Positions 7,261 to 25,875 of a stretch of 46,905 bases of DNA are shown here, in pieces. Source of the DNA: a virus (taxonomy: Duplodnaviria; Caudoviricetes); IMG/VR virus record IMGVR_UViG_3300023283_000212, positions 1-46,905 of that record, one strand, 5' to 3'. Each line of letters opens with the position of its first letter. Within the stretch, counting starts at the first letter, position 1. Made by a program: the position numbers and the translations under genes. The notes under the pieces were generated by a model. The model saw only the letters and a program-made list of their open reading frames with translations. It did not search any database and had not been told where the DNA came from.

Positions 7261-7522
7261 GGTACGGCAACTGTTCGCCCGGATGGACGCGCAACAGGGC
7301 CTCACCGGCTTGGCGTGGGTCGTCTTCTGCGGCGTGACGATCTGGGTCGGGGTGACCGTCCAGCAGATGAGCATCACGCTGGCCGGCATGCAGCAGGAAC
7401 TGCGGCACCACTCGAGGCTGTTGGGCGAACGAGCCGACAGCGAGACCGTCCAGGAACTGCGGGCCGAGGTGCTGCGTCTGCGAACGCGGATCTCGGCCCT
7501 CGAAAGAAGCCCGCCGCGCTAA
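7250..7522 (+). CDS. Small membrane protein with coiled coil (holin-like candidate)
   Basis: MASEVRQ...; one hydrophobic segment LAWVVFCGVTIWVGVTV followed by a heptad-rich tail. It overlaps the end of the giant ORF. Confidence 0.55.
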   Translation: MASEVRQLFARMDAQQGLTGLAWVVFCGVTIWVGVTVQQMSITLAGMQQELRHHSRLLGERADSETVQELRAEVLRLRTRISALERSPPR

Positions 7523-7710
7523 GCGTCCTGCCGCGCGGTGGGGGGAGTGGAAGTCGGTCCGGAGACGACCACGAGCCGAATCCGGCATCATCCCTGACGC
7601 CGGTAACCGGACTCTGACCCAAAATAAACCCTTTGTCCAGACTTTTCCCGCCAAAATTTTCACTAGCACGGCATAGGATGGGGCAAGAATGCCCAGAGAA
7701 TATGCCGCGC

Positions 7711-7761
7711 GGACATCGGATTCTCAGTCCGAAGACAGGGGTTCGACTCCCCTAGGGGGCG
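7711..7761 (+). mobile_element. attP core: 3' portion of tRNA-Glu(CTC)
   Basis: Anticodon arm TCGGA-TTCTCAG-TCCGA, T-arm AGGGG-TTCGACT-CCCCT and 3' acceptor strand AGGGGGC are present. There is no matching 5' acceptor strand or D-arm upstream. It lies upstream of a tyrosine integrase. Confidence 0.8.
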
Positions 7762-8452
7762 CTTAAAAGGGGTGTCGTCGGATTGGTAGTCCGATGACAT
7801 TCGCGGGCGGCTTCACAGGCAGAGAACGGATGAGCATCATGCCCGAAGGCAATCCGAGGCCCAAGATGTTGCGGGAGGATTTCGCGGGGTCCGCCCACGG
7901 TGCGGTGGATCGTGTTTCTCGTCGTGCTCTTCGCCCAGACACACAGAAGACCAAACGAGCGAAAGGACCTGATGGGCCGCGCAGGTGAGCGGGAGGGGAA
8001 GCCCCCGTATCACTGACGCACATCAGTTTTGGACGGCACCTGCGCGGCCCGGCAGATCCTTTCAAAAGTTTTTTTCGCGCGCAACTCGCGACGACCAACC
8101 ACGTTCGCGTGCCGCTGGCCGGCGGGAACGAAATTCTTGGCGCCGCAGCGCTTGACGTGCGCCGCCCGGGCCGCTTATCTTGGAAGCCGTCCAAAATAGA
8201 TGTGCGTTTCGCCCCCTCTCGGGCACTCCGCGACCAGCCACTTTTTCCAGTGGCGCACGCTGTCGCTGACCGAGGCCGGTGTGACGCACACATTGGCCGG
8301 TCGGAGCACATCCCGGCTTGGGCCGGTCAGCCCAGCGGAGCTACTTGCAGCACCGCCGGCGGCGCAGGTTTTTCGTACCGGGCCTGCGCTGCCTGGCGGG
8401 TGCTTGTCGCTCCGCAGAGCACGGAGTGCTGCGTCATGTCCCGCGATAGGAT

Positions 8453-8515
8453 CGGTCAGCCGCTTGTTTTTCCCGCTGCGGGCGCCGCCGGGAGGACGGC
8501 GAAAAAGGCTGACCG
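8453..8515 (+). promoter_or_regulatory. Long hairpin directly upstream of the integrase start codon
   Basis: CGGTCAGCC...TTTTTC pairs with GAAAAA-GGCTGACCG, ending 2 nt before ATG 8518. Confidence 0.5.
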
Positions 8516-8517
8516 CC

Positions 8518-9447
8518 ATGAATCTCCCTTCCCTACTCGCCCGTTTCGCGACGGAAAATCCGCGCCTCGATTCGCACCGCTCGGTCGAGGAGTACCGTTC
8601 GACGGTGCGCGTCTTTTGCCGCTGGTGGCGCACGCGGGGCGAAACCGCCGAGCCGCGCATCGCCGATCTGACCGATGCGGCGATCGCCGAGTGGCTGCGC
8701 GCTTTGGACGCGGCCGAGTACGCCCGGCCGACGATCAACAAGCACCGCCGGCAACTGGTGGCGCTGCTCGGCTGGGCCTGGGCCGAACACCTGCTGGCCG
8801 CGCCGCCCCGGGTGAAAAAGTACACCGAGCCCCGGCGCTGCCGGTCCGCCTTTACGCCCCGAGAGTTCCAGGAGCTCCTCGATGCGGCCGGGCGTCGCGA
8901 CGGGTATGTGGGGGGCGTGCCGGCCGGGATCTTCTGGCAGGCGCTGCTCTCGACGATTGCGACCTCGGGCGGGCGAATCAACGCAGTGATGCTCTCCCGT
9001 CGCGCGGAGTTCGACCCGCAGCGGCGGACGCTGCGGCTGGACTGCAAAGTCCAGAAGCAGCAGGCCGATCAAGTCTTCGTCCTTCCACCCACGACCGCAG
9101 CCGTGCTCGGGCGTTTGATCGCGATGCACGAGCAGGAACGGATTTTCGGTTGCTGGCCGCACGATGCGCGTCGTGGGTGGAAGACGTTGACCCGCCACTA
9201 CCGGCACATTCTGCAGGCCGCCGGACTGCCGCACCGCTCGCGCCGGGACCTCTTCCACAAGATCCGCGCGAGCGTCGCCACCTGGATCGCCGCCGAGCTC
9301 GGCGAGGAGGAAGCCCGCAAGTACCTGGGCCATTCGAACGTGCGCGTGACGCGCAGCTATCTCGATCTCTCGCAGCTCCCGAGCATCCGCGACCTGTCGG
9401 GCGTGTTGCCGCAGTTCGAGGTGGGCGACGTGCGGCTGGTGGGGTGA
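8518..9447 (+). CDS. int: Tyrosine recombinase / phage integrase
   Basis: SAM-like N-terminus; catalytic R (SGGRINAV), HxxR (FHKIR), LGH and Y (TRSY). Confidence 0.9.
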   Translation: MNLPSLLARFATENPRLDSHRSVEEYRSTVRVFCRWWRTRGETAEPRIADLTDAAIAEWLRALDAAEYARPTINKHRRQLVALLGWAWAEHLLAAPPRVKKYTEPRRCRSAFTPREFQELLDAAGRRDGYVGGVPAGIFWQALLSTIATSGGRINAVMLSRRAEFDPQRRTLRLDCKVQKQQADQVFVLPPTTAAVLGRLIAMHEQERIFGCWPHDARRGWKTLTRHYRHILQAAGLPHRSRRDLFHKIRASVATWIAAELGEEEARKYLGHSNVRVTRSYLDLSQLPSIRDLSGVLPQFEVGDVRLVG

Positions 9448-9529
9448 GATGCATGCCGCACAGGGGCCGCGCGAAGCGAGAACGAGATCGTGAGTCCCGG
9501 TCATCACTTTGTTTGCAAAGGAGATTCGG

Positions 9530-9727
9530 ATGCTTGTCGTGACCAGGAAACTGTGGGAGTCGGTGGTGATCGGCGAGGTGACGGTGACGGTCGTGCCGTC
9601 GCAAGGCGCAGGCGTGCGGCTCGCGATCGACGCGCCGCGCGACGTGCCGATTCTCAGAGCGGAGATCGCGGTGCGGGCGGGCGCGGACGGCGGCCGGCGA
9701 GTCGAAGCGGGAGGCTCTTCGCGATGA
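9530..9727 (+). CDS. csrA: Carbon storage regulator CsrA-family RNA-binding protein
   Basis: MLVVTRKLWESVVIGEVTVTV...VRLAIDAPRDVPILRAEI matches the CsrA signature. AAGGAG RBS. Confidence 0.9.
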   Translation: MLVVTRKLWESVVIGEVTVTVVPSQGAGVRLAIDAPRDVPILRAEIAVRAGADGGRRVEAGGSSR

Positions 9728-9924
9728 CCGCCGCGCCGAAAGACACGATTTGCGTGGCCCTCCGCGCGCACGGCGAGCACTGGGTGTTTTTCTTCTCCCC
9801 GCCCGACCGGCGCGAGTTTGTCCGGGCCGCCGCCCGCTGGGCCAGCGATTCGGGTCTCGCCTTCTCCTGGGAGGACGCCGTCCGGGCGATGTTCGCCGCG
9901 AAAAAGGAGATGGCGAGCGACTGA
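9724..9924 (+). CDS. Small conserved hypothetical protein of a type I recall from Planctomycetota
   Basis: ICVALRAHGEHWVFFF...RWASDSGLAFSWEDA; ATGA-coupled to csrA. Family recognition is from memory. Confidence 0.65.
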   Translation: MTAAPKDTICVALRAHGEHWVFFFSPPDRREFVRAAARWASDSGLAFSWEDAVRAMFAAKKEMASD

Positions 9925-9935
9925 TAAGGAGCCGC

Positions 9936-10163
9936 ATGATGCAGACGCATTTGGAGCCGCCAGGTGGCGGCTGGATCGGCGCGGACGATCCGCCGGCGAC
10001 GGGCGAGACGGTGCTGGTCTACTGCCGCAAGTGGGCCGAGCCGATTTGGCTCGCGTTTTTCGACCAGCGCGAATCGCGTTGGCGGCCGGCCGACGTTCCG
10101 GCCGGCACGTTCATCGCCGACCCGACGCACTGGCGGCCGCTGCCCGAGGAGCCGGAGCGATGA
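9936..10163 (+). CDS. DUF551-like phage protein
   Basis: WI...PP...VLVY...PTHWRPLPEEP motif; AAGGAG RBS. Confidence 0.75.
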   Translation: MMQTHLEPPGGGWIGADDPPATGETVLVYCRKWAEPIWLAFFDQRESRWRPADVPAGTFIADPTHWRPLPEEPER

Positions 10164-10594
10164 AAACCAATAACGGGCCGAGCGACCCGCTATCGATCAC
10201 GCAATCCGAGCTCGTGTTTCCCGGCCGACCTAACGGGCCGAGCGACCCGCTATCGATCACGCAATCCGAGCTCGTGTTTCCCGGCCGACCTAACGGGCCG
10301 AGCGACCCGCTATCGATCACGCAATCCGAGCTCGTGTTTCCCGGCCGACCGGTGGTGCAGGTGAGCTGCGTCGCGAGGTTTCGGGTCTGGGAAAGCCGCT
10401 GCGGCCGGTATCGCGTAGTCCACGCGCATGTCACGCTCGGCGAGGACCTTCCGCGCGGCCGGCGGTGGCCCGACCGGTACACGGCGCAGCAGCGAGACGA
10501 GGCGGGCTGGCGCGTTTTGTCGAGGCACCGCAAGCGGACCCGCGCGCTTGCCGCCTGCCGCCGACACGCGGGAAGAAAGCGAGGCCCGGCATGA
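10160..10594 (+). CDS. Hypothetical protein with three 20-aa repeats
   Basis: ATGA-coupled; GGAG RBS; (NGPSDPLSITQSELVFPGRP)x3. Confidence 0.65.
   Translation: MKTNNGPSDPLSITQSELVFPGRPNGPSDPLSITQSELVFPGRPNGPSDPLSITQSELVFPGRPVVQVSCVARFRVWESRCGRYRVVHAHVTLGEDLPRGRRWPDRYTAQQRDEAGWRVLSRHRKRTRALAACRRHAGRKRGPA
10171..10350 (+). repeat. Perfect 60-bp tandem repeat x3
   Basis: Three identical adjacent units with no spacers. Confidence 0.95.
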
Positions 10595-10613
10595 GCGAAC
10601 ACGAAAAACAACC

Positions 10614-10703
10614 AGGCAACGTCCAAGATCACGGGGCGGCCGTGATCGACATTGATTTCAAAACCGACGACGCCGGCCGCTCCCGTGCATCGTTTTGTTC
10701 GCC
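10614..10703 (-). other. attC-like site A (left boundary of the array)
   Basis: AGGCAAC-gtccaa-GATCACGGGGCGGCCG...CGGCCGC-t-CCCGTG-c-ATC-gtttt-GTTCGCC. Confidence 0.8.
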
Positions 10704-10727
10704 GCTTTTTGGCGGAAGGAGTTGACC

Positions 10728-11066
10728 ATGCCCGCACCGAAACAACCATGCCAGACATTGCCGCAGTGGTTGAAACAGAATCTTGGGCCGCGCTGTTTGG
10801 CGCCATTGACCGGAACCGATTCCAAAGCGCTTTCCGCTGCAGTGCAGATTGTTGCGCTGTACGCATACCATCCAGCGCCACAGGTCGCGGAAGCATTCGG
10901 CCTGACCGTGATGCAGATCCAGCAATCGTGTTGGCCGTTGGCGTACCATGCCATCGCGCACGTGATGGACTGGACTGACCGCGGCGAGTTGTGGCGCGAG
11001 GCGAAGTTGCCATCGATTCCAGTTGGCATTTGCAAGTTTGAGTCGCGAGAAGACGTGTTCGTGTAG
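10728..11066 (+). CDS. Cassette hypothetical protein
   Basis: AAGGAG RBS, ATG 10728; stop 2 nt before the next core site. Confidence 0.7.
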   Translation: MPAPKQPCQTLPQWLKQNLGPRCLAPLTGTDSKALSAAVQIVALYAYHPAPQVAEAFGLTVMQIQQSCWPLAYHAIAHVMDWTDRGELWREAKLPSIPVGICKFESREDVFV

Positions 11067-11067
11067 C

Positions 11068-11088
11068 GACGAACTATGATTATCAGGA
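11068..11088 (-). other. Short simple recombination site B
   Basis: GACGAAC-TATGA-TTATCAGG, sharing AACTATGATTATC with site G. Confidence 0.55.
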
Positions 11089-11338
11089 TTTCGCGATGCC
11101 CGGACCAGTCTCAGACTCATGGATGCGACGGCTTGGTGACCTTTTAAGGTCCGGCGGGGTAACGCCCGTGCTAATAGGCTGGCCGTTCAGTTGCTCGCTT
11201 GGACCGAGAGCGGAGGCAGCGCCATGACGCAGCCCTCCGTGGTTAGCAGGAGCCGTGGCGTCAGCGAATCGGTTGGGTACAGCACGGCTTGGCCGCTGGC
11301 ATGCGCTCACTGCTGATGCCAGCCCCGTGTTTTGATGC

Positions 11339-11462
11339 AGAGAACGACTGAGTTCACGCGGCCACGGGCCACGGAGAAAAGACGATGAAACAGACCACAC
11401 GAGAACAACCAGCGTCGAAGCGCGAGGGCGGTAGTGGCTCGGCGTGCAACGATTTGTTATCC
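11339..11462 (-). other. attC-like site C (contains RBS and ATG 11385)
   Basis: AGAGAAC-gactga-GTTCACGCGGCCAC...GTGGCtcgGCGTG-c-AAC-gattt-GTTATCC. Confidence 0.8.
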
Positions 11463-12185
11463 GTCGTCTCGTTTGGCGGCGGAATCAACAGTACGGCGTT
11501 GCTGATAGGTTTACACGAACGCGGGCAGACGCCGGACTTGGTGATGTTCGCAGACACCGGAGGCGAGAAGCCGGAGACATACGAGCACATCGCATTCATG
11601 GTGATTTGGTGCGGCCAGCGAGGAATGCCGATCAGGATTGTTGCGGAAACGCAAACGCTTGAGGACGACTGCCGCAACCGCGAGACGTTGCCAGGTAGGG
11701 TGTTTGGCTTCGGATCGTGCAGCGAGCATTTCAAGATAAGGCCGCAGCGCCGCTACCTGCGCGAACAGGGAATCGACGCCGTAACGTGGTTGGTTGGATT
11801 CCATGCGGGCGAACAGCGGCGAGCATGGAGAGGAGCGACCGGAAACGACACAATCCGATACCCGCTGATCGAATGGGGCTGGCATCAAGAGGATTGCATT
11901 GCCGCGATCAAGCGGCACGGCATGTCCGTGCCCGTGAAGTCCGCCTGCTTTTATTGTCCCTCAATGACGAAACGGGAAGTTCTGCGCTTGCGACGCAGCC
12001 ACCCGGAATTATTTGAGCGGGCGATTGAGATGGAACGCGATGCCATCGAATCCGGGAATCTGCAAACCGTGAAAGGTTTGGGACGCCACTGGAGCTGGGA
12101 ACAGCTGGCGACTGCCGACGCGGCACAATTGCGGTTGTTCGAGGATTGTCAGGTCCCGCTTTGTGACGTGTGTTTCGACGGATAA
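11385..12185 (+). CDS. PAPS reductase (CysH)-like / adenine nucleotide alpha-hydrolase family protein
   Basis: SFGGGINS PP-loop, FADTGGE, YPL and SACFYCP motifs. Confidence 0.85.
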   Translation: MKQTTREQPASKREGGSGSACNDLLSVVSFGGGINSTALLIGLHERGQTPDLVMFADTGGEKPETYEHIAFMVIWCGQRGMPIRIVAETQTLEDDCRNRETLPGRVFGFGSCSEHFKIRPQRRYLREQGIDAVTWLVGFHAGEQRRAWRGATGNDTIRYPLIEWGWHQEDCIAAIKRHGMSVPVKSACFYCPSMTKREVLRLRRSHPELFERAIEMERDAIESGNLQTVKGLGRHWSWEQLATADAAQLRLFEDCQVPLCDVCFDG

Positions 12186-12278
12186 CGACTGAGTTCGCGC
12201 GGCCACGGGCCGGAGAGAAAACGTATGAATGACGAGACGACAAAAAGCGAAGAACCAGCGTCGAAGCGCGAGTTATCC
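12180..12278 (-). other. Decayed attC-like site D (paralog of site C with a 30-nt deletion in the right arm)
   Basis: Left arm is near-identical to site C. The right arm jumps from GCGCGAG to TTATCC. Confidence 0.7.
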
Positions 12279-12809
12279 GTTTTTTCGCGTGAGATCGCGG
12301 AACAAATTGGAGACTGGATCGCACAGGGCCAGCAGTATGCGCAACAAGAGCAGGCCGACGAACCGTACTGGGACCACGTTTGCGCCGAAATTCGCGAGTA
12401 CCTCGATCGAGCGCATGACATTGGATGGCACGCCGCCGCACACGCCGCGATTACCGTTTGCAACGTCCGTGCCGAGCGAGGCGACGACATCGGAACGCCG
12501 CGAAGCAATGAAGCGGCAAAGTGTGGATTGCAGATCGAGGCCGTGTTGGTGACGCACACAATGACGTTGCCGCGCGAATACCAGAGAGACGAGAAGTTGC
12601 CGGCCCCTGTGGGAGGCGATGAGCCGGAGTGCCCACATTGCGGGACCGTGCACGAAATGCCGAAGTGGGTCGAACAGTACCACACGTTCAATTGCGATTG
12701 CGGTTGGGCGTTTCAAGCTGAGCGGGAAACCGTCATTGTGTCGCGACCGCTCGAATACCGTGAGTGGACCAAGGTAACCGGGTTGCCGGACCAACGGAGA
12801 AACCCATGA
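12225..12809 (+). CDS. Cassette hypothetical protein with Zn-ribbon (CPHC...CDC)
   Basis: GGAGAG RBS inside site D. Reads into site E and stops at the ATGA overlap. Confidence 0.7.
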   Translation: MNDETTKSEEPASKRELSVFSREIAEQIGDWIAQGQQYAQQEQADEPYWDHVCAEIREYLDRAHDIGWHAAAHAAITVCNVRAERGDDIGTPRSNEAAKCGLQIEAVLVTHTMTLPREYQRDEKLPAPVGGDEPECPHCGTVHEMPKWVEQYHTFNCDCGWAFQAERETVIVSRPLEYREWTKVTGLPDQRRNP

Positions 12810-12890
12810 ATCAACGGACGATGTACAACGAATCGATTGACGTTGACAAACCGAAAGACGAGGCAACTCCGGTTGACCGCCTTGTTATCC
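12760..12890 (-). other. Decayed attC-like site E (left AAC core lost)
   Basis: gaccaa-GGTAACCGGGTTGCC...GGCAAC-t-CCGGTT-g-ACC-gcctt-GTTATCC. GTG stands where AAC is expected. Confidence 0.7.
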
Positions 12891-13282
12891 TGCCTGTCAA
12901 AGCGGTGACCATCTCCCAGCCGTTTGCATCGTTGATTGCTGACGGTGCCAAGTTTGTTGAGAACCGGACGTGGGAGTGCCGATACCGTGGCCCGATCGCG
13001 ATTCATGCAGGGAAGGGGACGCAGTATCTGGACCGCCGCGAATTGCGGGAATACCCGAACGGCGGAATCGTGGCCGTGGCGAACCTGTTGGCGTGCATGC
13101 CGTTGGATTCGATGCGGCGCATCAGCCGGTCGCAACGCATCCAGCGAACAGAGTTGACGATTGGCGAAGTGCTGGACCATGAACACACGGAAGGTCCGTG
13201 GTGTTGGATTTTGAGCGACGTGAAACCGTGCAAGTTCTTTCCGTGCCGTGGGGCGCAGGGACTGTGGGACTTTGCTGGATAA
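12806..13282 (+). CDS. ASCH domain protein
   Basis: KAVTISQPFASLIADGAKFVENRTW...RGPIAIHAG...GPWCWIL...RGAQGLW. Confidence 0.9.
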   Translation: MNQRTMYNESIDVDKPKDEATPVDRLVILPVKAVTISQPFASLIADGAKFVENRTWECRYRGPIAIHAGKGTQYLDRRELREYPNGGIVAVANLLACMPLDSMRRISRSQRIQRTELTIGEVLDHEHTEGPWCWILSDVKPCKFFPCRGAQGLWDFAG

Positions 13283-13405
13283 CGCTGGTGATAACCGGAC
13301 CACGGACCAACGGAGTTGACGTTGAATGACCAAGGAAGTTGACAACCAGATTGACGGTGGAACTGCCGAGACGGTAGTGGCTCCGTGTTCATCACATTGT
13401 TATGT
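13277..13405 (-). other. attC-like site F (contains RBS and ATG 13326)
   Basis: GGATAAC-gctggt-GATAACCGGACCAC...GTGG-c-TCCG-t-GTT-c-ATC-acatt-GTTATGT. Confidence 0.8.
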
Positions 13406-13940
13406 GCCGTATCGGACAATCTTGATTGATCCCCCGTGGCCGCAAGTGATGAGCGGAAAGTACAAGACAGCGAAGAATCAGCGGGCCGCCGATTTGCCAT
13501 ACAACCCGATGACGCTGGAGGAAATGTTGCGGTTGCCTGTGAAGGCATTGGGCAGTGATGACGCCCATTTATGGCTGTGGACAACCAATCAATTCCTCGA
13601 GGACGGCTTCGTGTTGATGCGTGCATGGGGGTTCAAGTATTTGGCGGCGATCCACGCGATTAAGCCGAACGGGATCGGCAATTACTTCGTGCATCGGACG
13701 CAAACGCTGTTGTTCGGGTACAAGACCAAGTGCAAGTTTCCGTTGGAGCGGTACAAGCCGAACATCATCGAAGTGCCGGACCCAAGGCGGCACAGCGAGA
13801 AGTGGGACGAAACGTATGAGTACATCGAGTCCGTCTCGCCCGGCCCGCGTGTCGAGCTGTTCGCACGCCGGAAACGTCCCGGCTGGGACGTGTGGGGCAA
13901 CGAAGTGGACTCGGACATCGAGTTGGAAGTAGGCACATAA
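13326..13940 (+). CDS. MT-A70 family N6-adenine methyltransferase
   Basis: YRTILIDPPW, HLWLWTTN, AWGFKY, HSEK and ELFARR...GWDVWGNE motifs. Confidence 0.9.
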   Translation: MTKEVDNQIDGGTAETVVAPCSSHCYVPYRTILIDPPWPQVMSGKYKTAKNQRAADLPYNPMTLEEMLRLPVKALGSDDAHLWLWTTNQFLEDGFVLMRAWGFKYLAAIHAIKPNGIGNYFVHRTQTLLFGYKTKCKFPLERYKPNIIEVPDPRRHSEKWDETYEYIESVSPGPRVELFARRKRPGWDVWGNEVDSDIELEVGT

Positions 13941-13955
13941 CTATGATTATCCAGC
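13935..13955 (-). other. Short simple recombination site G (contains ATG 13943)
   Basis: ACATAAC-TATGA-TTATCCAGC. TTATCCAGC is the complement of this cassette's end GCTGGATAA. Confidence 0.65.
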
Positions 13956-14254
13956 CGTTTCCACCGCGAGACGGCAACGAATGGGATTGCCAGTGCGCCC
14001 GTTGCGGATCGTCCGCAGATTGGCGGGAGTGTGAATCGTGCGACGAGGACGGCTTTGACGGGCACGATTGCGGCGAGGATTGCTGCATGTGCCTGTGTCC
14101 AAAAGAAAACGTTCCGTGCCAGTTTTGCGACGGCCACGGCGGAGATTATTGGTGCCTATCATCGCGCGAGTGGTGTGAGGCGAATCCACTAGAAGGACGA
14201 GAGCAAATCGAGCGAGGACAGATCGAGTGGTTCCGTGTCCGTGATGCTGGATAA
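13943..14254 (+). CDS. Cys-rich Zn-finger cassette protein
   Basis: Multiple CxxC motifs; TAA lies in the core of site H. Confidence 0.75.
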   Translation: MIIQPFPPRDGNEWDCQCARCGSSADWRECESCDEDGFDGHDCGEDCCMCLCPKENVPCQFCDGHGGDYWCLSSREWCEANPLEGREQIERGQIEWFRVRDAG

Positions 14255-14338
14255 CGACCAGCGTAACCGGGACCGCCCGGTTGACGTGGAATACAGAGTT
14301 GACGCGGAGGCGGTCTCCGGTTGACGCATTTGTTCTTC
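14249..14338 (-). other. attC-like site H
   Basis: GGATAAC-gaccag-CGTAACCGGGACCGCC...GGCGGTC-t-CCGGTT-g-ACG-cattt-GTTCTTC. Confidence 0.85.
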
Positions 14339-14354
14339 AGTTTTTGGTGACGAT

Positions 14355-14798
14355 ATGCGAAAAGCGAGACTGATAGAAGACGCCGAAAACGACGTCGTCC
14401 ACGGCAATGGTCGGGAGCAGATTCGAGCATTGTGTGAGCGTGCTCGATTCCAATCCGAGTGGTATTCAGTGCGTTGGAAACGGCTGCATGAATATCTTCG
14501 CGACCATGCGGACCAAGACACGTTCGAGCGATCCTGTAACATCATGGCGAACGGAACTGCCGACTCGATGGAACCGCCAACGTACGGGCAGATTTTGAAT
14601 GTGTTGCAGCAGGCCATCGAGCAGTCGATAGCGTTGGCAGATACGGGCAGCCATGCCCACAAATCGCGGTTCGATCCGGATGGCGTTGGCGAAATTCCTC
14701 CGGGTTGGCGAGTGGTTGAAGCGATGACGGAACGACTCAAGGACGGGCTGAAATGGGGGACGTCGCTGATGCGGCGATCCACGAGCACTGTTGACTGA
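14355..14798 (+). CDS. Cassette hypothetical protein
   Basis: The ORF fills the interval between sites H and I. Confidence 0.7.
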   Translation: MRKARLIEDAENDVVHGNGREQIRALCERARFQSEWYSVRWKRLHEYLRDHADQDTFERSCNIMANGTADSMEPPTYGQILNVLQQAIEQSIALADTGSHAHKSRFDPDGVGEIPPGWRVVEAMTERLKDGLKWGTSLMRRSTSTVD

Positions 14799-14882
14799 AG
14801 AACGTTTCGGATCACCGGGCGGAAAGAAAGCTATGAGTACAGAAACAGCGTTGCCCGCTCCGGTGCATCCGGCTGGTTATGT
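14797..14882 (-). other. attC-like site I (contains ATG 14833)
   Basis: GAAGAAC-gtttc-GGATCACCGGGCGG...CCGC-t-CCGGTG-c-ATCC-ggctg-GTTATGT. Confidence 0.8.
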
Positions 14883-15243
14883 GCCGCATCCGTTGCGTGT
14901 GCAGCGAAAGCGGACCAAGGGATTCCGGTTGCAATCAGGCGTCATTTGCGTGACAAGGCCCGGCCCGTGGGGAAACCCGTTCAAGATGCAGTCAGCACTC
15001 GAAGCGGGCTACGCGAACACCGAAGCCGAGGCCCGTGCGTTGTGCGTCGAGTGTTTCGAGGATTGGCTGTTAAAAGGTGACCTTTCCGAGTGGTGGTTTG
15101 GTGCAAGCCGTGAATCGTGGATGTGGATGCGAGAGAACTTGTCAACGCTGGCGAGTCAGAAGGTGGCGTGCTTCTGTCCGCTGGATCGTCCGTGTCACGC
15201 CGACGTGCTGGCAAAGTGGGCACCGATGGCGTGTCCGTTTTAG
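14833..15243 (+). CDS. DUF4326 domain protein
   Basis: RVQRKRTKG...VTRPGPWGNPF...ACFCPLDRPCHADVL. Confidence 0.85.
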   Translation: MSTETALPAPVHPAGYVPHPLRVQRKRTKGFRLQSGVICVTRPGPWGNPFKMQSALEAGYANTEAEARALCVECFEDWLLKGDLSEWWFGASRESWMWMRENLSTLASQKVACFCPLDRPCHADVLAKWAPMACPF

Positions 15244-15245
15244 GC

Positions 15246-15265
15246 ACATAACTTGGTCGTTATGC
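15246..15265 (-). other. Short simple site J (copy of terminal site N)
   Basis: ACATAAC-TTGGTC-GTTATGC. Confidence 0.65.
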
Positions 15266-15377
15266 CGCAAGTTGCCGAGGTTGCTAAGCGAGTTGCCAAG
15301 CGGAGTTTTGGTGGACGGAAAAAAGTGAGCAGGCGAGGCGTAACTACCTGAAAGAGTCCCAGCTTACGGCCGCCGAG
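15249..15377 (+). repeat. Internal copy of the array's right boundary and the 5' part of the replication gene (16953-17175)
   Basis: Near-identical sequence. It has a single copy of the upstream duplicated unit and lacks 21 nt between two GTTGCCAAG repeats, which removes the ATG. Confidence 0.9.
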
Positions 15378-15437
15378 GTCGATCAGGATTGGCCCAACGA
15401 TGACAAGTTGGATGATTTTCTGATCCGGCAACAGTCC

Positions 15438-15569
15438 ACATAACGTTAAAGATCACCGGGCACATGGCCCAACGGGATAGGCGATGGAACAACCAAACAA
15501 CGTAGCCGAAGGATTGGACGTGGAAACGCCGGAAGACGAATGTGCTCCGTGTGCATCGCCTTGTTATCG
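15438..15569 (-). other. attC-like site K (contains ATG 15484)
   Basis: ACATAAC-gttaaa-GATCACCGGGCACAT...ATGTGC-t-CCG-t-GTG-c-ATC-gcctt-GTTATCG. Confidence 0.85.
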
Positions 15570-15672
15570 GGATTCTCGGACGCGGATTCAGCGATTGTTG
15601 AATTACAAACGATACATTGATTGGTTAATTGAAAAGGAGCTGGAAAATGTGGACAGGCAACGACACGCTTGA
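15484..15672 (+). CDS. Small cassette protein (first of two genes in cassette K)
   Basis: Starts inside the attC-like loop, like neighbouring cassette genes. Confidence 0.5.
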   Translation: MEQPNNVAEGLDVETPEDECAPCASPCYRDSRTRIQRLLNYKRYIDWLIEKELENVDRQRHA

Positions 15673-16189
15673 CGCTTTGCGATCGAAGGCAGCGTCGATG
15701 ACGACGGGAACCATTTGCGTGAACATTGAGCAACTGAATGGGTTTGGCCGCGTTCTCCGGGTCTCGGAAGAGATCATCGAAGAGGCCAAAGAGACGCGTA
15801 CATGGCCAGACAAGCGGATCAGCGCAAAGCTGTTGTACGAGCTTCAGGACGCGCTCAAGGCGTGCGGGAACATGGCGAAGAAATTGAAACACGCACCGGA
15901 GGAACTGTGCGGTGAGAGTCTGCGGTATTTTCGGGACGGAAACATGATGTGCTGTGTGTTCGGCGACTTCGAGAACTTGCAGGAAAGTCCAGCAGGTTTT
16001 GGAAAAACGGACGACGAAGCGTATGAAGACTTGAAGCAGCAGATCGTGTGTGAGACGTGTGGCGGCGATGGTCGTGTTCCGGTGACGAATACGTGGTCTG
16101 TGGACCGTGGCACGAAGTTTCGGCGTGATTACGAGGAACAAGTTACGGGAGAATGCCCAGCGTGTCACGGCGTTGGGTTTTCCCGATAA
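15647..16189 (+). CDS. Cassette hypothetical protein with DnaJ-type CxxCxGxG motifs
   Basis: AAGGAG RBS; CETCGGDG and CPACHGVG; TAA lies in the core of site L. Confidence 0.75.
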   Translation: MWTGNDTLDALRSKAASMTTGTICVNIEQLNGFGRVLRVSEEIIEEAKETRTWPDKRISAKLLYELQDALKACGNMAKKLKHAPEELCGESLRYFRDGNMMCCVFGDFENLQESPAGFGKTDDEAYEDLKQQIVCETCGGDGRVPVTNTWSVDRGTKFRRDYEEQVTGECPACHGVGFSR

Positions 16190-16274
16190 CGACTGAGGTC
16201 AGCGGGCGGCGGCCGTTGACTTTGATTTCATGTGCAGCGTCAACCGCCGCTCCGTCTGCACCGTTTTGTTATCT
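16184..16274 (-). other. attC-like site L
   Basis: CGATAAC-gactga-GGTCAGCGGGCGGCGG...CCGCCGC-t-CCG-t-CTG-c-ACC-gtttt-GTTATCT. Confidence 0.85.
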
Positions 16275-16286
16275 GCGGATCATGCA

Positions 16287-16628
16287 ATGAGCAACCTACG
16301 AAGCGACTGCCGCGACCTTGTGAAAGACCGTGAAGCCGGGGACGTTTGGCGAACACATATCGAGCGACTGTGCTACCAGATCGACGAAGTTGAGGAACGC
16401 TGGCACGCAGCAGAGCGGAAGTTGAACGCCGCCCGTGAGGCGTTGGAGCAGATCGTATGCACGGAAGGCGAAGACCGTGGCGTGGTAATGGTCGATCACG
16501 AAAGCCCGACACGGTACGACTCGGAGCGAAAATGTCAGGTGTATTTGTGCGAGAACTTTTCGCCGCTGGGGGACGCTTTGATTTCATTGTGGGATGGACT
16601 TCAACGCGACGTTGAGTTGAGCAGATAA
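16287..16628 (+). CDS. Cassette hypothetical protein (coiled coil); alternative start 16230 inside site L
   Basis: The ORF fills the L-M interval; TAA lies in the core of site M. Confidence 0.7.
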   Translation: MSNLRSDCRDLVKDREAGDVWRTHIERLCYQIDEVEERWHAAERKLNAAREALEQIVCTEGEDRGVVMVDHESPTRYDSERKCQVYLCENFSPLGDALISLWDGLQRDVELSR

Positions 16629-16713
16629 CGTCCAAGGTCACCGGGCCGCCGCCAGTGACCTCGAACTTGAATTAACGCGCCGTCGGCGGCTCCGGTGCAC
16701 CGTTTTGTTATCC
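16623..16713 (-). other. attC-like site M
   Basis: AGATAAC-gtccaa-GGTCACCGGGCCGCCG...CGGCGGC-t-CCGGTG-c-ACC-gtttt-GTTATCC. Confidence 0.85.
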
Positions 16714-16722
16714 GGATTTCAC

Positions 16723-16956
16723 ATGGCGACTACGAGAACACCACCGACGTTTCAGTTTGATGAGCGATCAGTGCTGAAGTGTCCGGGCTGTCAGACACCG
16801 CTGAAGCGAGTGCGTCAGACAGGCGGCATGATGTTGAACGATGATCAGTTTGACGCGATCAAAGCGGGCGACTTCTATTGCGATCAGTGTCCGGGCGATC
16901 GCGGCAAGTCAGGTTTGCGATACTTTTGGAAGGCCGAGTTGGGGATTGACGGATAA
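16723..16956 (+). CDS. Small Zn-ribbon cassette protein
   Basis: CPGC...CDQC; TAA lies in the core of site N. Confidence 0.7.
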   Translation: MATTRTPPTFQFDERSVLKCPGCQTPLKRVRQTGGMMLNDDQFDAIKAGDFYCDQCPGDRGKSGLRYFWKAELGIDG

Positions 16957-16970
16957 CTTGGTCGTTATGC
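16951..16970 (-). other. Terminal simple site N, candidate attI-like insertion point
   Basis: GGATAAC-TTGGTC-GTTATGC: two inverted cores 6 nt apart. It sits at the array end that is 5' in attC orientation. Confidence 0.6.
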
Positions 16971-17605
16971 CGCAAGTTGCCGAGGTTGCTGAGCGAGTTG
17001 CCAAGCTATGGACGGCAGTTTCCAAGCGGAGTTTTGTTATGCCGCAAGTTGCCGAGGTTGCTAAGCGAGTTGCCAAGCTATGGATGGCAGTTGCCAAGCG
17101 GAGTTTTGGTGGACGGAAAAAAGTGAGCAGGCGAGGCGTAACTACCTGAAAGAGTCCCAGCTTACGGCCGCCGAGATCGAGCTGTTGGTGATCTTGGGGG
17201 GCTGTGGAAAAGTTGTCCGCAGAGACGGCAACTGGCTGGTTGCCAAGGTTGCCAAGCGTGAGTTTGCCGGCCGGGGATTCGCGGCCGAAACGCTCCGCAA
17301 GGCGGCTGTCCGACTGTCCGAGTCCGAGTCCGCGCTGGTCCGAATCGAGCCGGGAAAAGGCGGAAAACCCAGCGTTTATTGGGTTGATTGCGGCCGCCTG
17401 TCCGAGTTGTCCGAGCTGCCGCGAGCGAGTTTCGCCGGCGGGAAAAAATTTCCGCCGCCGGAGCTTGGCAACTCGCTTGGCAACCTTGGCAACTCGCTAC
17501 CCCGTGTAAAAGAAACAAGCGCATTACGCCGTGCATCCGTGAACCGTGAACCGTGCGCTCGTGCGGGAGCAAGCCGCGTGCCGGTTGCCGAGCCGGTTGC
17601 CAAGA
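16964..17605. repeat. GTTGCC(A/G)AG iteron-like repeats and a 72-bp duplication; putative replication origin
   Basis: Many direct copies in 16976-17256 and 17584-17604. Inverted copies CTTGGCAAC at 17464, 17476 and 17485 lie inside the rep-like gene. Confidence 0.6.
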
Positions 17606-17979
17606 TCGACGACATCGACGACATCGACGGCCTCGGGGCGATCCTTAGATCGGATCGCCCCTGGTCGGATCTCCGCGACTGGCACGTGAGGACCGGGGAC
17701 CTGAGGCTCGCCCGACTACTGTACGCACACAGTGGGCAGACGGGGCAACTGGCAGAGCAGGGATACGCGAAGCTGTTCCTGGCGCAGTTTCACCACTGCG
17801 CAAATCTGCGGAAGGCGCACATACGCGATCCGAACCGCAGCGACGGGCAGGGGGGACGCCACAACGCGGCGGCGATCCTGGCGTCGCTCGTACGCAGCGG
17901 CCGGCGAGATGTGATCCAAAACGCCTCCTGGGAGTGGGCCGAATCGCAACTGCGCCGCCGGCAGCCGGTCGAAGATTGA
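17080..17979 (+). CDS. Putative replication initiator (winged-helix-like N-terminus, internal iterons)
   Basis: wHTH-like 'AETLRKAAVRLSES...VRIEPGKGGKPSVYWVD' followed by a low-complexity repeat-bearing linker, as in lambda O-like initiators. Confidence 0.5.
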   Translation: MDGSCQAEFWWTEKSEQARRNYLKESQLTAAEIELLVILGGCGKVVRRDGNWLVAKVAKREFAGRGFAAETLRKAAVRLSESESALVRIEPGKGGKPSVYWVDCGRLSELSELPRASFAGGKKFPPPELGNSLGNLGNSLPRVKETSALRRASVNREPCARAGASRVPVAEPVAKIDDIDDIDGLGAILRSDRPWSDLRDWHVRTGDLRLARLLYAHSGQTGQLAEQGYAKLFLAQFHHCANLRKAHIRDPNRSDGQGGRHNAAAILASLVRSGRRDVIQNASWEWAESQLRRRQPVED

Positions 17980-18039
17980 TTTGTGCCGAGACCAGGGCCG
18001 CCACGTGCGAACGAACAGCGTGAATCGGCGTCGGTCCAA

Positions 18040-18390
18040 CGCCTGGTTAGCCAGCTTTTTGGCGCGGCTCGCGGTGTCGAGTTACGCATCGGTCAGCAGC
18101 GGTGCTTCTTCTGCCTGGCGCCGTGCGGCGAATCGAATGTGGCCGCGAAGCACGTCAAGAGGTCGTTCACCAGCCGTGACACCGTGGGCGGCGATGAACG
18201 AAAAAGCGACCGTCACAATGGCGGACGGCGAAGTCCGCGAGAATCAAAAGGTCAGATCGTATTCGTGGCTGATCGCCAACGGCAACGCGATCGCGGCCGT
18301 GTGTCTCACAGCCGCGAGCAGATCGTCGTGACGCTCGAAGGCGATCCGATCACCTGCACGCCGGCCGAACTTCGCGGCCGGCTGAGTCAG
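18040..18390 (+). pseudogene. csf1: Fragmented type IV CRISPR Csf1 (Cas8-like) relic
   Basis: Three pieces in alternating frames: VSQLF...CFFCLAPC...KRSFTSRDTV / AMNEKATVTMADGEVRENQKVRSYSW / RGRVSHSREQIVVTLEGDPI...ELRGRL. Resemblance is from memory. Confidence 0.45.
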
Positions 18391-18541
18391 ATTCCGCCGG
18401 GCGATACTCATTTAATAGCTGTAATGCCTCAGTCAATTCGCGCTGATGCGCCTTGAGCAGGGCGGCCACTCGCCGCAGTCTCTCCACCTCGCGTTGCAGC
18501 AATTCGTTTTGGTGTGCGAGCTGTTTCTGTTTTGTTTTCAT
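18350..18541 (-). CDS. Small coiled-coil protein
   Basis: MKTKQKQLAHQNELLQREVERL...; purine-rich GAGGAG leader. Confidence 0.65.
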   Translation of the reverse strand: MKTKQKQLAHQNELLQREVERLRRVAALLKAHQRELTEALQLLNEYRPAESDSAGREVRPACR

Positions 18542-18571
18542 CTCTCTGTCTCTCTCCTCGCTAGTGGTTGT

Positions 18572-18597
18572 GCCGGCTGTTGGTGGGCCGCCGGCTT
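18572..18597 (-). repeat. 26-bp leader element repeated at 19148-19173
   Basis: GCCGGCTGTTGGTGGGCCGCCGGCTT is identical upstream of both leftward genes. Confidence 0.85.
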
Positions 18598-18686
18598 CGC
18601 CCGGTGGAGCATTCCGCGTGCTCCGTGCGGCCCCCCTGTGAGCGAGGCCGGCGGCGGGGGGCGGACCGCCGGCGAGAGAGTCTGTG

Positions 18687-19124
18687 TTACGTGGGGCCCA
18701 TCGGTTCCTCATGCCGCCGCAGCAGGTCCACCCGGATCTGCTGCCGGGTACCGGAGTAGTCCGGCCACCCGTCTGTGTGCCCCGACGGCGTGGCGGATCG
18801 CCTCGCGGCATAAAACTCGCGGTCGTATTCCTGTCGTGCTCGCGTCGGCGCGAGCGGCGGGGGGCCGTCGTGGAGCTGGTGCACGACGGCTACGGCGGAG
18901 GCGTGGACTCTAACGTCCACCCCCAACGTTTTTGCGTCGGCCCAGTCGGTGACCGCCTCCCCGGGCTCTCCCGGGAACTCAACCGTGAATGTTTCGCTTT
19001 TCCCGCCGACCCGTGACGCGAATATTTGGGGCGTCATGCCCTTTTCAAATAAGTACGTAATTCCGTCTGCGCCAATGCCCCATCCTAGCGGACGCGGACG
19101 CGGAAACTCTTCTGCGAATGTCAT
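18687..19124 (-). CDS. Hypothetical protein
   Basis: MTFAEEFPRPRPLGWG...; GAGGAGAGGGAG RBS; downstream of the leftward promoter. Confidence 0.65.
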   Translation of the reverse strand: MTFAEEFPRPRPLGWGIGADGITYLFEKGMTPQIFASRVGGKSETFTVEFPGEPGEAVTDWADAKTLGVDVRVHASAVAVVHQLHDGPPPLAPTRARQEYDREFYAARRSATPSGHTDGWPDYSGTRQQIRVDLLRRHEEPMGPT

Positions 19125-19193
19125 CTCCCTCTCCTCATCTGAGTGTCGCCGGCTGTTGGTGGGCCGCCGGCTTTGCCCTCGTCGCCTGACTCC

Positions 19194-19221
19194 ATTGTAT
19201 CTTTCGTGCAGCGAAATGCAA
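19194..19221 (-). promoter_or_regulatory. Leftward sigma70-like promoter
   Basis: TTGCAT-16 nt-TACAAT on the minus strand. Confidence 0.6.
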
Positions 19222-19254
19222 CGAAAAAAAGGCCGCTGGGGAAAATTATTTCGC

Positions 19255-19283
19255 TGGACGTAATCTATTGCGCGTGCTATACT
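19255..19283 (+). promoter_or_regulatory. Rightward extended -10 promoter giving a probable leaderless mRNA
   Basis: TGGACG-17 nt-TATACT with a TGn extension. ATG 19291 lies 7 nt downstream with no RBS. Confidence 0.6.
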
Positions 19284-19290
19284 TGCGCGC

Positions 19291-19494
19291 ATGAGCGCGA
19301 AACCACCCAAAAAAAAACGGCAGCGGAAGCTCGGCCGGCCGAGCCGGACGGGCAGGCCGACGCAGACGATCGGAGTGCGACTCGCGCGCAGCGAGCTGCG
19401 CGCCATCGACGCGGCGGCGAAGGAGGTGGGCCTCACCCGCTCGGAGTTCGTGCGGCGGGCGGCCGCGCGGGCGGCCGCTAAGGTGACCCACTAG
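19291..19494 (+). CDS. Ribbon-helix-helix (CopG-like) regulator
   Basis: GRP...TIGVRLARSELRAIDAAAKEVGLTRSEFVRRA. Confidence 0.8.
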   Translation: MSAKPPKKKRQRKLGRPSRTGRPTQTIGVRLARSELRAIDAAAKEVGLTRSEFVRRAAARAAAKVTH

Positions 19495-19792
19495 CAGGGC
19501 CGGCCAGCAGCGGCAGAAGCGTGTCGAGAATCGACTTCGGCGACGGTTACATCCGGAGCTTCTGCATCAGGTCGGAAAAGCAACTGCGGCCGAGGGTCGA
19601 CCAACGGTGGACCTCCTCCACCACGCTTGAGAGGGTGAAGTCCGGCAAATGCAGCCGCAGCGGATAGCTCGGGTCCGGGGCGTCGCGGGCCGCGCGCGCG
19701 AGGCGATGCGGGCGGATTCGGCGGATGCGGTCGGATGCGAATCGCATCCGACCGGGCTTGCGGGCCTCCGGCCGGCCGGCGAACATGAGCGT

Positions 19793-20017
19793 ATGGCAGC
19801 ACGCAGAGTCATTACGGTTCGGATGCCGCCCTGGCTGCACGAGGCACTGCGCGAGGAGGCGCATCGCTCCCGGACCTCGCTCAACTCGCTCTGCATCTCG
19901 AAGCTAGCCAGCTCCCACGGCGGCGGCGATGCGCCGCCCGAATTGCCCCACGGGGCCCCTCCGGCCGGAAAAATTTGCACCGGACCCCCCGTACCGAAGA
20001 CGATGCCGGTACAGTAG
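19793..20017 (+). CDS. Arc/HicB-like ribbon-helix-helix protein
   Basis: RVITVRMPPWLHEALREEAHRSRTSLNSLCISKL. Confidence 0.7.
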   Translation: MAARRVITVRMPPWLHEALREEAHRSRTSLNSLCISKLASSHGGGDAPPELPHGAPPAGKICTGPPVPKTMPVQ

Positions 20018-20088
20018 TTAGCTTCTCTCTCCCGCGCCCAAATCTGGGTGGTAAAAGCGCACGCTCTCGGATATAGCCGCACAATCTC

Positions 20089-20514
20089 TTGTGTGAGCGG
20101 CCCCTCTTGCGAGATCTGCCGAGTGTGCCTCCGACACCCAAACAGCTTCGCTCGCTGTGCCAGATGCGCCGCGACGGCACCCGCCCGGCTGAGATCGCCG
20201 CGCGGCTAAGTGTCAGCGTCACAACGGTTTACCGCTGGATGAGGGCCGCCGAATTGCCGGTCCGGGGCGTCTCGGCGGGCCTTCGCAAAGGCGTCTGCCA
20301 GCAGCTCCGAGCAGGTAAAAGTTACAAGGCGATTGCGAGGCACTACAAAATTTCGCCCGACACCGTGCGGCGAATCGACCGCAGGCGAAACGCCAGAACG
20401 ATCGGGCGGCCGACGTTCAAGCCGACCAACAGGCCGGTCCGCTGCCCCGGCTGCGGCGGGCGAATCAATTTGCTGCCGTGCGTCCTATGCTCCGCGAAAA
20501 ATTCCAGAGCTTGA
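20089..20514 (+). CDS. Double-HTH protein with C-terminal Zn finger (possible late regulator); start uncertain
   Basis: AEIAARLSVSVTTVYRW, KAIARHYKISPDTVRRI and RCPGCGG...PCVLC. Confidence 0.7.
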   Translation: MCERPLLRDLPSVPPTPKQLRSLCQMRRDGTRPAEIAARLSVSVTTVYRWMRAAELPVRGVSAGLRKGVCQQLRAGKSYKAIARHYKISPDTVRRIDRRRNARTIGRPTFKPTNRPVRCPGCGGRINLLPCVLCSAKNSRA

Positions 20515-20714
20515 TTCAGTCGCGGCGTTTCTGGGGGCTCGCCCTCCAGGTGCTCGTCGCCTTCACGTATCACCACCTGCGGCTCGGATCGCCGGAGGCC
20601 TGGATGATCGTCATGGGCCTGGGGTTCTGGGTCCTCGGCGACTCACTGCGGCCGGCGCGCACGGCACTGAAAATCAGCCGCCGTGAAATCCGTCAGGCGC
20701 TCAACATCGAGTAG
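20487..20714 (+). CDS. Holin-like two-TM protein
   Basis: SRRFW, two hydrophobic segments, WVLGDSLR and a basic tail. Confidence 0.6.
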   Translation: MLREKFQSLIQSRRFWGLALQVLVAFTYHHLRLGSPEAWMIVMGLGFWVLGDSLRPARTALKISRREIRQALNIE

Positions 20715-20724
20715 GGATTGACTG

Positions 20725-20892
20725 ATGGGCAGAATCGTCGCTCTTTTGCTCGCGCTGCTGGTGATCTTTTTCGCAGGCTACGCGACCGGATGGCACGAGG
20801 GGCGGGCGAGTATCGGGCCGCCGGCCGAGACGGCGCCGCTTCAGATCGAACGCGGCGACTACGCGCGGAGCGATCACATCCGCAGGTACTGA
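20725..20892 (+). CDS. Small membrane-anchored protein (55 aa)
   Basis: MGRIVALLLALLVIFFAGYATGWHEG...; fills the gap between neighbouring genes. Confidence 0.6.
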   Translation: MGRIVALLLALLVIFFAGYATGWHEGRASIGPPAETAPLQIERGDYARSDHIRRY

Positions 20893-20895
20893 CAC

Positions 20896-23261: not shown

Positions 23262-23279
23262 GGAGTAAGGAGTCTTCGC

Positions 23280-24047: not shown

Positions 24048-24166
24048 GGCCAGCGGCAAACGAGTGGCATCCGAACTCTTGGCGAGTTCGGCTACTGGTA
24101 AACTCTCACCTGCCGCTCGCCTAAAGCCGAGCGGCCATTTCTTTCCCACCTTTCAAGGAGAAGCGC

Positions 24167-25391: not shown

Positions 25392-25503
25392 GGATCGAGC
25401 CTCCTGTCTTAGCTCGGTTCCGGGCCCGGGGCGTTGGCGCGCCGCCGGGCCGCTTTTGTGGTGTGCCGATCCGGATCGTACCAACCGCAAAAGGACGAAG
25501 CAA

Positions 25504-25833: not shown

Positions 25834-25875
25834 TAAAAGCGCTCCGCGCGGGCCTGCCGACTAGACTGTGGGGAC

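What the first reader, a model, noticed from the sequence alone, without database searches (positions are those of the whole stretch)
11456..16957. Each cassette's 3' end complements its own attC core, the footprint of circular intermediates
The right core of a site matches the end of the cassette it heads, generally better than it matches the adjacent left core. C: GTTATCCGTCG/CGACGGATAAC (11/11). E: GTTATCCTGC/GCTGGATAAC (9/10). F and I: GTTATGTGCC/GGCACATAAC (10/10). H: GTTCTTCAGT/ACTGAAGAAC (10/10). K: GTTATCGGGA/TCCCGATAAC (10/10). L: GTTATCTGC/GCAGATAAC (9/9). M: GTTATCCG/CGGATAAC (8/8). A: 6/7. This is what is expected if each unit was a circle with a fully paired attC that was opened at AA|C. 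It independently fixes the cassette boundaries and orientation.
Basis: seen in the sequence. Interest (0 to 1): 0.85.

Follow-up and report, generated by a model that had tools for sequence, protein, structure and literature searches.

The report
Reshuffling backward integron cassettes in phage
A bacterial virus carries a row of small genes packed between integron-type DNA hairpins but facing backwards, and environmental samples of this virus hold them in different orders, likely moved as circles by the host's integron enzyme; the end-to-end base pairing that was flagged is real but is a long-known property of such cassettes.

Summary
The pairing is real: all nine quoted matches hold, and 2 of 362,880 permutations reach the observed score. 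It is a known attC property (Bouvier 2009; also in Planctomycete host arrays). It does not fix boundaries, because both possible crossover sides give the same pairs, and it shows no circle.

The system is more interesting. The window is a complete 46.9-kb phage without IntI. Its 13-unit array has Planctomycete-type attC sites with the genes on the recombining strand, inverse to host arrays and to the published TJE1 array; six start codons lie inside the hairpins. Contigs of four runs (one study) show other cassette orders. All five joints within the array fall at core AACs, two sharing only AAC, so each unit moves with its upstream hairpin. No single-cassette circle was seen.

Inverse arrays dominate 29 of 42 viral locus groups. 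Two viral records carry IntI beyond an attI-type end. Six literature searches found no description of the inverse type; this scan has noted it before on other phages. Verdict: known feature, inside a new variant of the integron array.

The parts
1..46905 (.). Complete phage genome, 127-nt direct terminal repeat; terminase, major head, portal-like gene; no IntI
8200..9447 (+). Ordinary phage tyrosine integrase; lacks the IntI-specific insertion; probably not the cassette recombinase (inferred)
   Evidence: phrog_1, no TIGR02249 match, alignment
10618..16957 (+). Cassette array of 13 units (A-M), GC 56.9% against 67.6% for the rest; genes on +, which is the recombining-type strand
10620..11073 (+). 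Cassette A: attC head (cores at 10618 and 10697), ORF ending 11066; its left core interrupts a reading frame that starts at 10591
11074..11344 (+). Unit B: short attI-type head (second box 5 nt after AAC, 6 of 9 pairs with own end); no clear gene
11345..12185 (+). Cassette C: attC head (11343/11456), PAPS-reductase-family gene starting at 11385 inside the hairpin loop, stop in the end core
12186..12766 (+). Unit D: damaged; head is a relative of C's with the right arm missing, AAC end lost; ORF 12225-12809
12767..13282 (+). Cassette E: attC head without left-core AAC (right core 12884), ASCH-domain gene starting at 12806 in the loop
13283..13940 (+). Cassette F: attC head (13281/13399), MT-A70 DNA methyltransferase gene starting at 13326 in the loop
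13941..14254 (+). Unit G: attI-type mini-head (box 13947-13955 pairs 9 of 9 with own end), cysteine-rich 103-aa ORF from 13943; head likely serves as a second insertion point
   Evidence: joints
14255..14802 (+). Cassette H: attC head (14253/14332, bulged G), ORF 14355-14798; low depth in run X2
14803..15251 (+). Cassette I: attC head (14801/14876), DUF4326 gene starting at 14833 in the loop; found after F, after H, before G and before the attI-like site
15250..15443 (+). Copy of the terminal attI-like site with downstream DNA (to 15382, 21-nt deletion), fused to the headless tail of unit J
   Evidence: bridged by contigs in X1 and X4
15444..16189 (+). Cassette K: attC head (15442/15563), short leader frame from the loop, main ORF ending 16189
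16190..16628 (+). Cassette L: attC head (16188/16268), ORF open from the loop (ATG 16230 or 16287)
16629..16956 (+). Cassette M: attC head (16627/16707), ORF ending 16956
16951..16970 (+). Terminal attI-like simple site (AAC, 6 nt, GTTATG); likely the main entry point
   Evidence: H, I and M ends each abut it in contigs; motif at other array ends
17080..17979 (+). ORF of no known family with internal repeats inverted to those after the attI-like site; possibly a replication initiator (inferred)

Best explanation
The region is a phage-borne array of integron attC cassettes with the genes in inverse polarity, present in different orders in the phage population and likely excised and re-inserted as circles by a host IntI acting in trans. 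Shown: each unit runs from the C of its head's left-core AAC to the AA of its own end; the + strand folds with the bulged C/G and T on the arm opposite the AAC, the geometry of the recombining strand; the unit's end pairs with its head's right core; the phage encodes no IntI; alternative orders join at AAC. Inferred: closing a unit restores a fully paired attC, which IntI cuts at AA|C; circles enter at the terminal attI-like site (16955) or at the attI-type head of G; the host is a planctomycete with a chromosomal integron; inverse polarity puts the genes in sense with the phage early region, and six cassettes bring their start codon inside their own hairpin, so they would stay translatable wherever they land.
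For: Pairing 2 of 362,880. Scanner: 8 sites on +, 0 on -, against 0.08-0.09 per 10 kb in other viral DNA. Closed forms 4.2-9.0 kcal/mol more stable than linear sites in 8 of 8, + strand more stable than - in 8 of 8, as reported for bottom strands (PMC5027507). Five of five joints inside the array at core AACs; F-to-I and H-to-terminal share only AAC. Same site type in Planctomycetota records (15 of 18 loci), IntI over cut-off in 4 of 5 such genomes, arrays beside intI. Two cross-phage cassette pairs are 94.6% and 97.2% identical from the left AAC to the end AAC with different neighbours. Two viral records carry IntI just beyond an inverse cassette and an attI-type end. Phage attC sites recombine with IntI1 (PMC9892861); C in place of the bulged G costs only 2.7-fold (PMC2727003).
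Against: No single-cassette circle joint in 4 runs, which are contigs and drop rare forms. All runs come from one study and X1 may be the window's source. Three of the five joints are marked 'between: not known', with short sides of 27-43 letters; I-to-G and G-to-L share 13 and 9 letters, so microhomology could make them. D, E's left core, J and the duplicated terminal site show non-AAC rearrangements. Two other cross-phage pairs share the body but have diverged heads. The host is not identified and no recombination was assayed. The terminal site's spacing differs from most other array ends.
Confidence: 0.8

Rival explanations
1. The sites are attC-derived but the phage's own tyrosine integrase (8200-9447), or another host tyrosine recombinase, moves the cassettes.
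For: An intact-looking tyrosine recombinase lies 1.2 kb upstream; 35 of 37 viral records with such sites have no IntI over cut-off.
Against: It lacks the IntI insertion and does not match TIGR02249. 25 of 32 array-bearing viral records gave no TIGR02249 match at E 0.001, although many are fragments. The phage with its own IntI also has a separate ordinary integrase.
Confidence: 0.07
2. The array is a relic of past IntI insertions; present order differences come from homologous or microhomology recombination between similar site ends.
For: I-to-G shares 13 letters and G-to-L 9; D's deletion, J's fusion and the duplicated terminal site are not at AAC; no circles seen.
Against: F-to-I (depth 38.2 in X2, 12.9 in X1) and H-to-terminal (3.1 in X4) share only AAC; only 8 of 60 AAC triplets in the stretch are cores, yet all five joints use them.
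Confidence: 0.08
3. The joints are chimeras of the assembly graph or pieces of related phages, and the array is static.
For: Evidence is from contigs of one study; short sides are 24-43 letters for four joints; related phages with similar heads are in the same runs (loose ends).
Against: A three-letter overlap cannot join contigs; joint depths match depth drops (H 6.5 and K 6.2 against G 29.3, I 36, L-M 31.3 in X2); I-to-G is bridged by 151 letters in X3; F-to-I occurs in two runs.
Confidence: 0.03
4. Each unit is a small element with terminal inverted repeats (inverton or MITE-like), not an attC cassette.
For: The GTT... and ...AAC ends of each gene body are inverted repeats of 8-11 nt.
Against: No inverted unit or opposite-strand joint inside the array; the moving unit includes the upstream hairpin; the same sites flank cassettes beside intI in hosts.
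Confidence: 0.02

Closest known systems
Integron gene cassettes and attC sites (PMC2727003, PMC5027507, PMC3053210)
   Same: RYYYAAC/GTTRRRY cores, 6/5-nt spacers, bulged base three pairs into the L box plus a T about six pairs further, cut at AA|C, end-to-core pairing of 9-11 nt.
   Different: Genes lie on the recombining strand; the site heads the gene, with start codons in the loop and stops in the end core; first bulge is mostly C; no intI or Pc in cis.
Planctomycete chromosomal integron arrays (Planctomycetes attC model in PMC8352920; loci L089-L120)
   Same: Same site sequence type, bulged C, own-end pairing (5.27 against 2.86 of 7).
   Different: Host genes are classical in polarity (46 classical-only, 1 inverse-only of 80) and sit beside intI.
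Phage CALINs (Qi et al. 2023, PMC9892861), e.g. Tetrasphaera phage TJE1
   Same: attC clusters without integrase in phages, methyltransferase cargo; five of six tested sites recombined with IntI1.
   Different: TJE1's sites are in classical polarity; the parts read (2-4 of 7) report no systematic inverse polarity, attI-like terminal site in a CALIN of a virulent phage, or population reshuffling.
Delta-attI-type gene cassettes (PMC12901181, abstract) and attG sites (10.1101/2022.09.11.507474)
   Same: Cassettes bounded by short attI-type sites are mobile; IntI inserts at simple double-stranded sites outside integrons. Units G and B and the terminal site resemble these.
   Different: Those were described in class 1/2 mobile integrons and E. 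coli chromosomes; the attG right-hand motif cannot be scored here because that side belongs to the inserted cassette.

Membership tests
attC site | Inverted cores RYYYAAC...GTTRRRY with inner L boxes and 5-6 nt spacers | tested here: met
   8 sites by scanner; E lacks its left AAC, D its right arm
attC site | Extrahelical bases on the arm opposite the cut AAC | tested here: met
   Bulged C in 7 and G in 1 of 8 sites on the 3' arm of +, none on -
attC site | Core pairing restored in the closed cassette | tested here: met
attC site | Recombined as a folded single strand by IntI | not testable with these tools
   needs a conjugation or in vitro assay
Integron cassette | Unit moves with crossover at AA|C | tested here: met
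   5 of 5 joints inside the array at core AACs, two sharing only AAC; one study only
Integron cassette | Free circular form | tested here: inconclusive
   No single-cassette joint in contigs of 4 runs; contigs drop rare forms
Integron cassette (classical) | Gene on the top strand, followed by its attC | tested here: not met
   Genes are on the bottom-like strand and preceded by their attC
Complete integron | intI gene with the IntI-specific insertion | tested here: not met
Complete integron | attI site at the array end | tested here: inconclusive
   Simple site at 16955 abuts H, I and M ends and resembles host and phage ends; function untested
Complete integron | Pc promoter reading from attI into the array | tested here: inconclusive
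   No sigma-70-type match in 9400-17300; genes point toward the attI-like site, so a Pc would be antisense
CALIN | Cluster of attC sites with no IntI in the replicon | tested here: met

The most novel reading that the evidence does not exclude
Phages of planctomycetes run their own branch of the integron system: a shared pool of backward cassettes whose attC hairpin carries the gene's start signals, fed through attI-like sites in the early region and actively reshuffled in wild populations by host IntI, with some phages carrying IntI themselves.
Probability: 0.55. Interest if true: 0.75.

Novelty: new variant of a known kind. Interest (0 to 1): 0.52.

Why it matters
The flagged pairing alone teaches nothing new. 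The array does: integrons are viewed as bacterial gene-capture devices, and phage attC clusters as rare captured leftovers. Here the cassettes have phage-type cargo, inverse polarity and different orders among samples of one phage, which suggests a site-specific route to phage mosaicism and possible hijacking of a host recombinase. It gives testable substrates: closed-form attC sites, two candidate attI-type sites and two phage-borne IntI genes. It also bears on how cassettes arise, since gene and site overlap at both ends.

Tried and rejected
Circles: none seen in contigs of X1-X4; the back-joint 15240-to-13930 equals a G-H-I circle junction, but H is at low depth in X2 and nearly absent in X3, so I read it as the order I-G. 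No RNA holder listed. Close relatives of this phage: none for ORF 17080 in viral or metagenome contigs, none for the integrase, so no empty site was seen. The 15-nt terminal motif gave 112 viral loci, about chance level, with almost no attC sites; used only as background. Relatives of cassettes F (80 loci) and C (3 loci) are mostly not in arrays. The G013 IntI found only itself. M's head had no real match among annotated phages. No Rfam match, no promoter match, no look-alike earlier finding by place. E's closed-form fold used a placeholder left coordinate and was dropped; one search uses 8 units. The Fisher test treats cassettes as independent, and most host cassettes come from one genome (G001), so I rely on the per-group tally. 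Supplements of Qi et al. 2023 (17 CALINs) were not opened; they could include inverse arrays.
Full report
Setting. The window is a complete phage genome of 46,905 bases with a 127-nt terminal repeat, a terminase, a major head protein and a tyrosine integrase. The finding lies in a low-GC block, 56.9% against 67.6%, between small early-type genes (CsrA-like, DUF551) and an ORF of no known family at 17080. Cargo: PAPS-reductase family (C), ASCH (E), MT-A70 methyltransferase (F), DUF4326 (I); the other units had no Pfam match.

Observation. All nine quoted matches hold. Contiguous pairs beyond GTT/AAC sum to 53 against a permutation mean of 19.9; 2 of 362,880 pairings reach this. The own end beats the adjacent left core in 8 of 8 units that have one. 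The nine are a selection from 13 units: D has lost its end core and the right arm of its head, J is a headless tail, and B and G have short heads (below).

The pairing is known and generic. Bouvier et al. 2009 (PMC2727003, passages) state that pairing extends to 9-11 consecutive nt for most cassettes; closed-circular intermediates are standard (PMC3053210, passages). In 64 host cassettes of the same site type the own end scores 5.27 of 7 against 2.86 for the adjacent core (52 higher, 9 equal, 3 lower). In 161 viral cassettes it is 5.34 against 3.00 (133, 14, 14). The pairing also cannot fix the boundary: a crossover at the right core joins the same end to the same core. For H, K and L the two models give -26.2/-23.6, -28.6/-26.5 and -25.4/-25.4 kcal/mol.

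What does fix boundary and polarity. (1) A scanner for recombining-strand geometry finds 8 sites on + and 0 on -, against 0.08-0.09 per 10 kb in two sets of other viral DNA. The bulge is C in 7 and G in 1, on the arm opposite the left AAC, which is the layout of the bottom strand (PMC5027507, passages); C is tolerated (PMC2727003). Closed forms are 4.2-9.0 kcal/mol more stable than the linear hybrids, and + is more stable than - in 8 of 8. (2) Contigs of four runs, all from one study, X1 possibly the window's source, gave six joints in 13850-17250. One reflects the inverted repeat beyond the array. The other five are at core AACs: F end to I head (depth 12.9 in X1, 38.2 in X2), G end to L head (29.3, X2), H end to the terminal site (3.1, X4), I end to G head (4.1, X3; loose ends in X1 and X2), and M end to about 830 letters not in the stretch, then the attI-like sequence (X1, X2; length inferred from X2 record 15). 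Shared letters are 3, 9, 3 and 13 for the first four, and only 8 of 60 AAC triplets in the stretch are cores. Each unit keeps its upstream hairpin. (3) Two cassette pairs from different phages align at 94.6% and 97.2% from the left AAC to the end AAC with different neighbours; two other pairs share the body but have diverged heads, and one further pair is the same region twice.

Reshuffling. Depths in X2 (G 29.3, I 36, L-M 31.3; H 6.5, K 6.2) fit a major order F-I-G-L-M-new-terminal, against F-G-H-I-...-K-L-M in the window. This phasing is inferred from contigs. It places I between F and G with an AAC-exact left joint, which is what insertion of an I circle at G's head would give. This is the best support for circles, and it is indirect: no joint from a unit's end to its own head was listed.

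Inverse polarity. The genes lie on the recombining strand. Six ORFs (C, D, E, F, I, L) have an ATG inside the head; A, H, K and M start after the right core; stops fall in or up to 7 nt before the end core. A 20-nt head motif hit 18 genome loci, 15 from Planctomycetota records (Adhaeretor's phylum is recalled). Four of 5 such genomes have IntI over cut-off, with arrays beside it. A gapped motif hit 109 viral loci. Keeping intervals of 200-1300 nt with at least 3 of 4 core pairs: viral 134 cassettes (62 inverse-only, 15 classical-only, 34 both, 23 neither); host 80 (1, 46, 1, 32), mostly from one genome. Of 42 viral locus groups 29 are inverse, 5 classical and 8 tied; two of the classical ones are provirus records and may include host DNA. 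The published TJE1 array is classical by the same scanner.

Entry sites. M's end is followed by a simple site (AAC, 6 nt, GTTATG), duplicated after I with 130 nt of downstream DNA. A second box 4-7 nt after the AAC occurs at 23 of 28 other viral array ends against 932 of 11,312 control AACs. The motif was defined after seeing the list, and the 28 come from 38 listed ends: I dropped 2 of the window, 5 that were further attC heads and 3 alternative ends. Host ends beside intI look similar. The heads of G and B are of this short type; G's box pairs 9 of 9 with its own end. Cassettes bounded by attI-type sites are known and mobile (PMC12901181, abstract), and IntI also inserts at attG sites (10.1101/2022.09.11.507474, passages and one section).

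Recombinase. The phage has no IntI match and its integrase lacks the IntI insertion; Cury et al. (10.1101/030866, passages) concluded that such neighbours are not IntI. IntI over cut-off was found in 1 of 32 array-bearing viral records and in 1 of 5 more, that one chosen because tblastn had flagged it. G013 is a complete phage with terminase, portal and head genes, a separate ordinary integrase, an inverse array, an attI-type end and intI starting about 50 nt later. G038 is a fragment with the same layout. So inverse arrays occur with a true IntI; for this phage a host IntI in trans is the simplest inference.

Comparison and novelty. The sites meet the attC criteria that could be tested and the array meets the CALIN definition; it fails classical cassette polarity and is not a complete integron. 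Phage CALINs and IntI1 activity on their sites are published (PMC9892861, parts 2-4 of 7 read; supplements not opened). Planctomycete attC models exist (PMC8352920, passages). Six searches and passages of a review (PMC8876359) gave no account of inverse phage arrays; the library lacks most subscription papers. Earlier notes of this scan describe inverse arrays in other phages and call the pairing a known footprint. I had reached both readings before seeing them and do not count them as support.

Verdict. The flagged feature is real and already known. The system is a new variant of a known kind, already noted elsewhere in this scan. What this window adds is natural reordering at AA|C, attI-type internal heads and phage-borne IntI examples. 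Interest 0.52; confidence in the mechanism 0.8.

Noticed in passing
window 10171-10350: Three identical head-to-tail 60-nt copies inside ORF 10160-10594; listed long contigs of X1 and X2 break here, so copy number may vary or be an assembly effect.
   Followed up: no
window 16964-17035: 72-nt tandem duplication right after the terminal site; absent from the major X1 and X2 contigs, present in a low-depth X4 contig.
   Followed up: partly
window 16957 (runs X1, X2): About 830 letters not in the window follow M's end before the attI-like site: probably one or more further cassettes. X4 also shows a new sequence after K's end at 16193.
   Followed up: no
window 17239-17607: Short repeats inside ORF 17080-17979, inverted to those after the terminal site; iteron-like, possibly the replication origin.
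   Followed up: no
window 10591-10620: A frame overlapping the stop of the upstream gene is interrupted after about nine codons by the array's first core; the array may have opened a small phage gene.
   Followed up: partly
L244:3043-7696 (G013) and L309 (G038): Phage records with an inverse array, an attI-type end and their own IntI in the same direction as the cassette genes; the G013 IntI is only about 32-34% identical to the Pirellulaceae IntI.
   Followed up: partly
L117:3305-5445 (G005): Host integron with intI in the same direction as its cassettes, unlike L116, L119 and L120.
   Followed up: no
window 16709 to 12889 (runs X2, X4): Low-depth joint from M's right core to E with 13 other letters between; probably from a related phage, unexplained.
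   Followed up: no
window 250-7260: 2336-aa protein with an LPD38 domain (large polyvalent protein).
   Followed up: no
window 20718-23261: 847-aa protein with a trypsin-like peptidase domain.
   Followed up: no
L002:4003-5410 (minus strand): Shorter attC sites (about 60 nt) in an AT-richer viral record, also with inverse genes: the pattern may extend beyond planctomycete phages.
   Followed up: no
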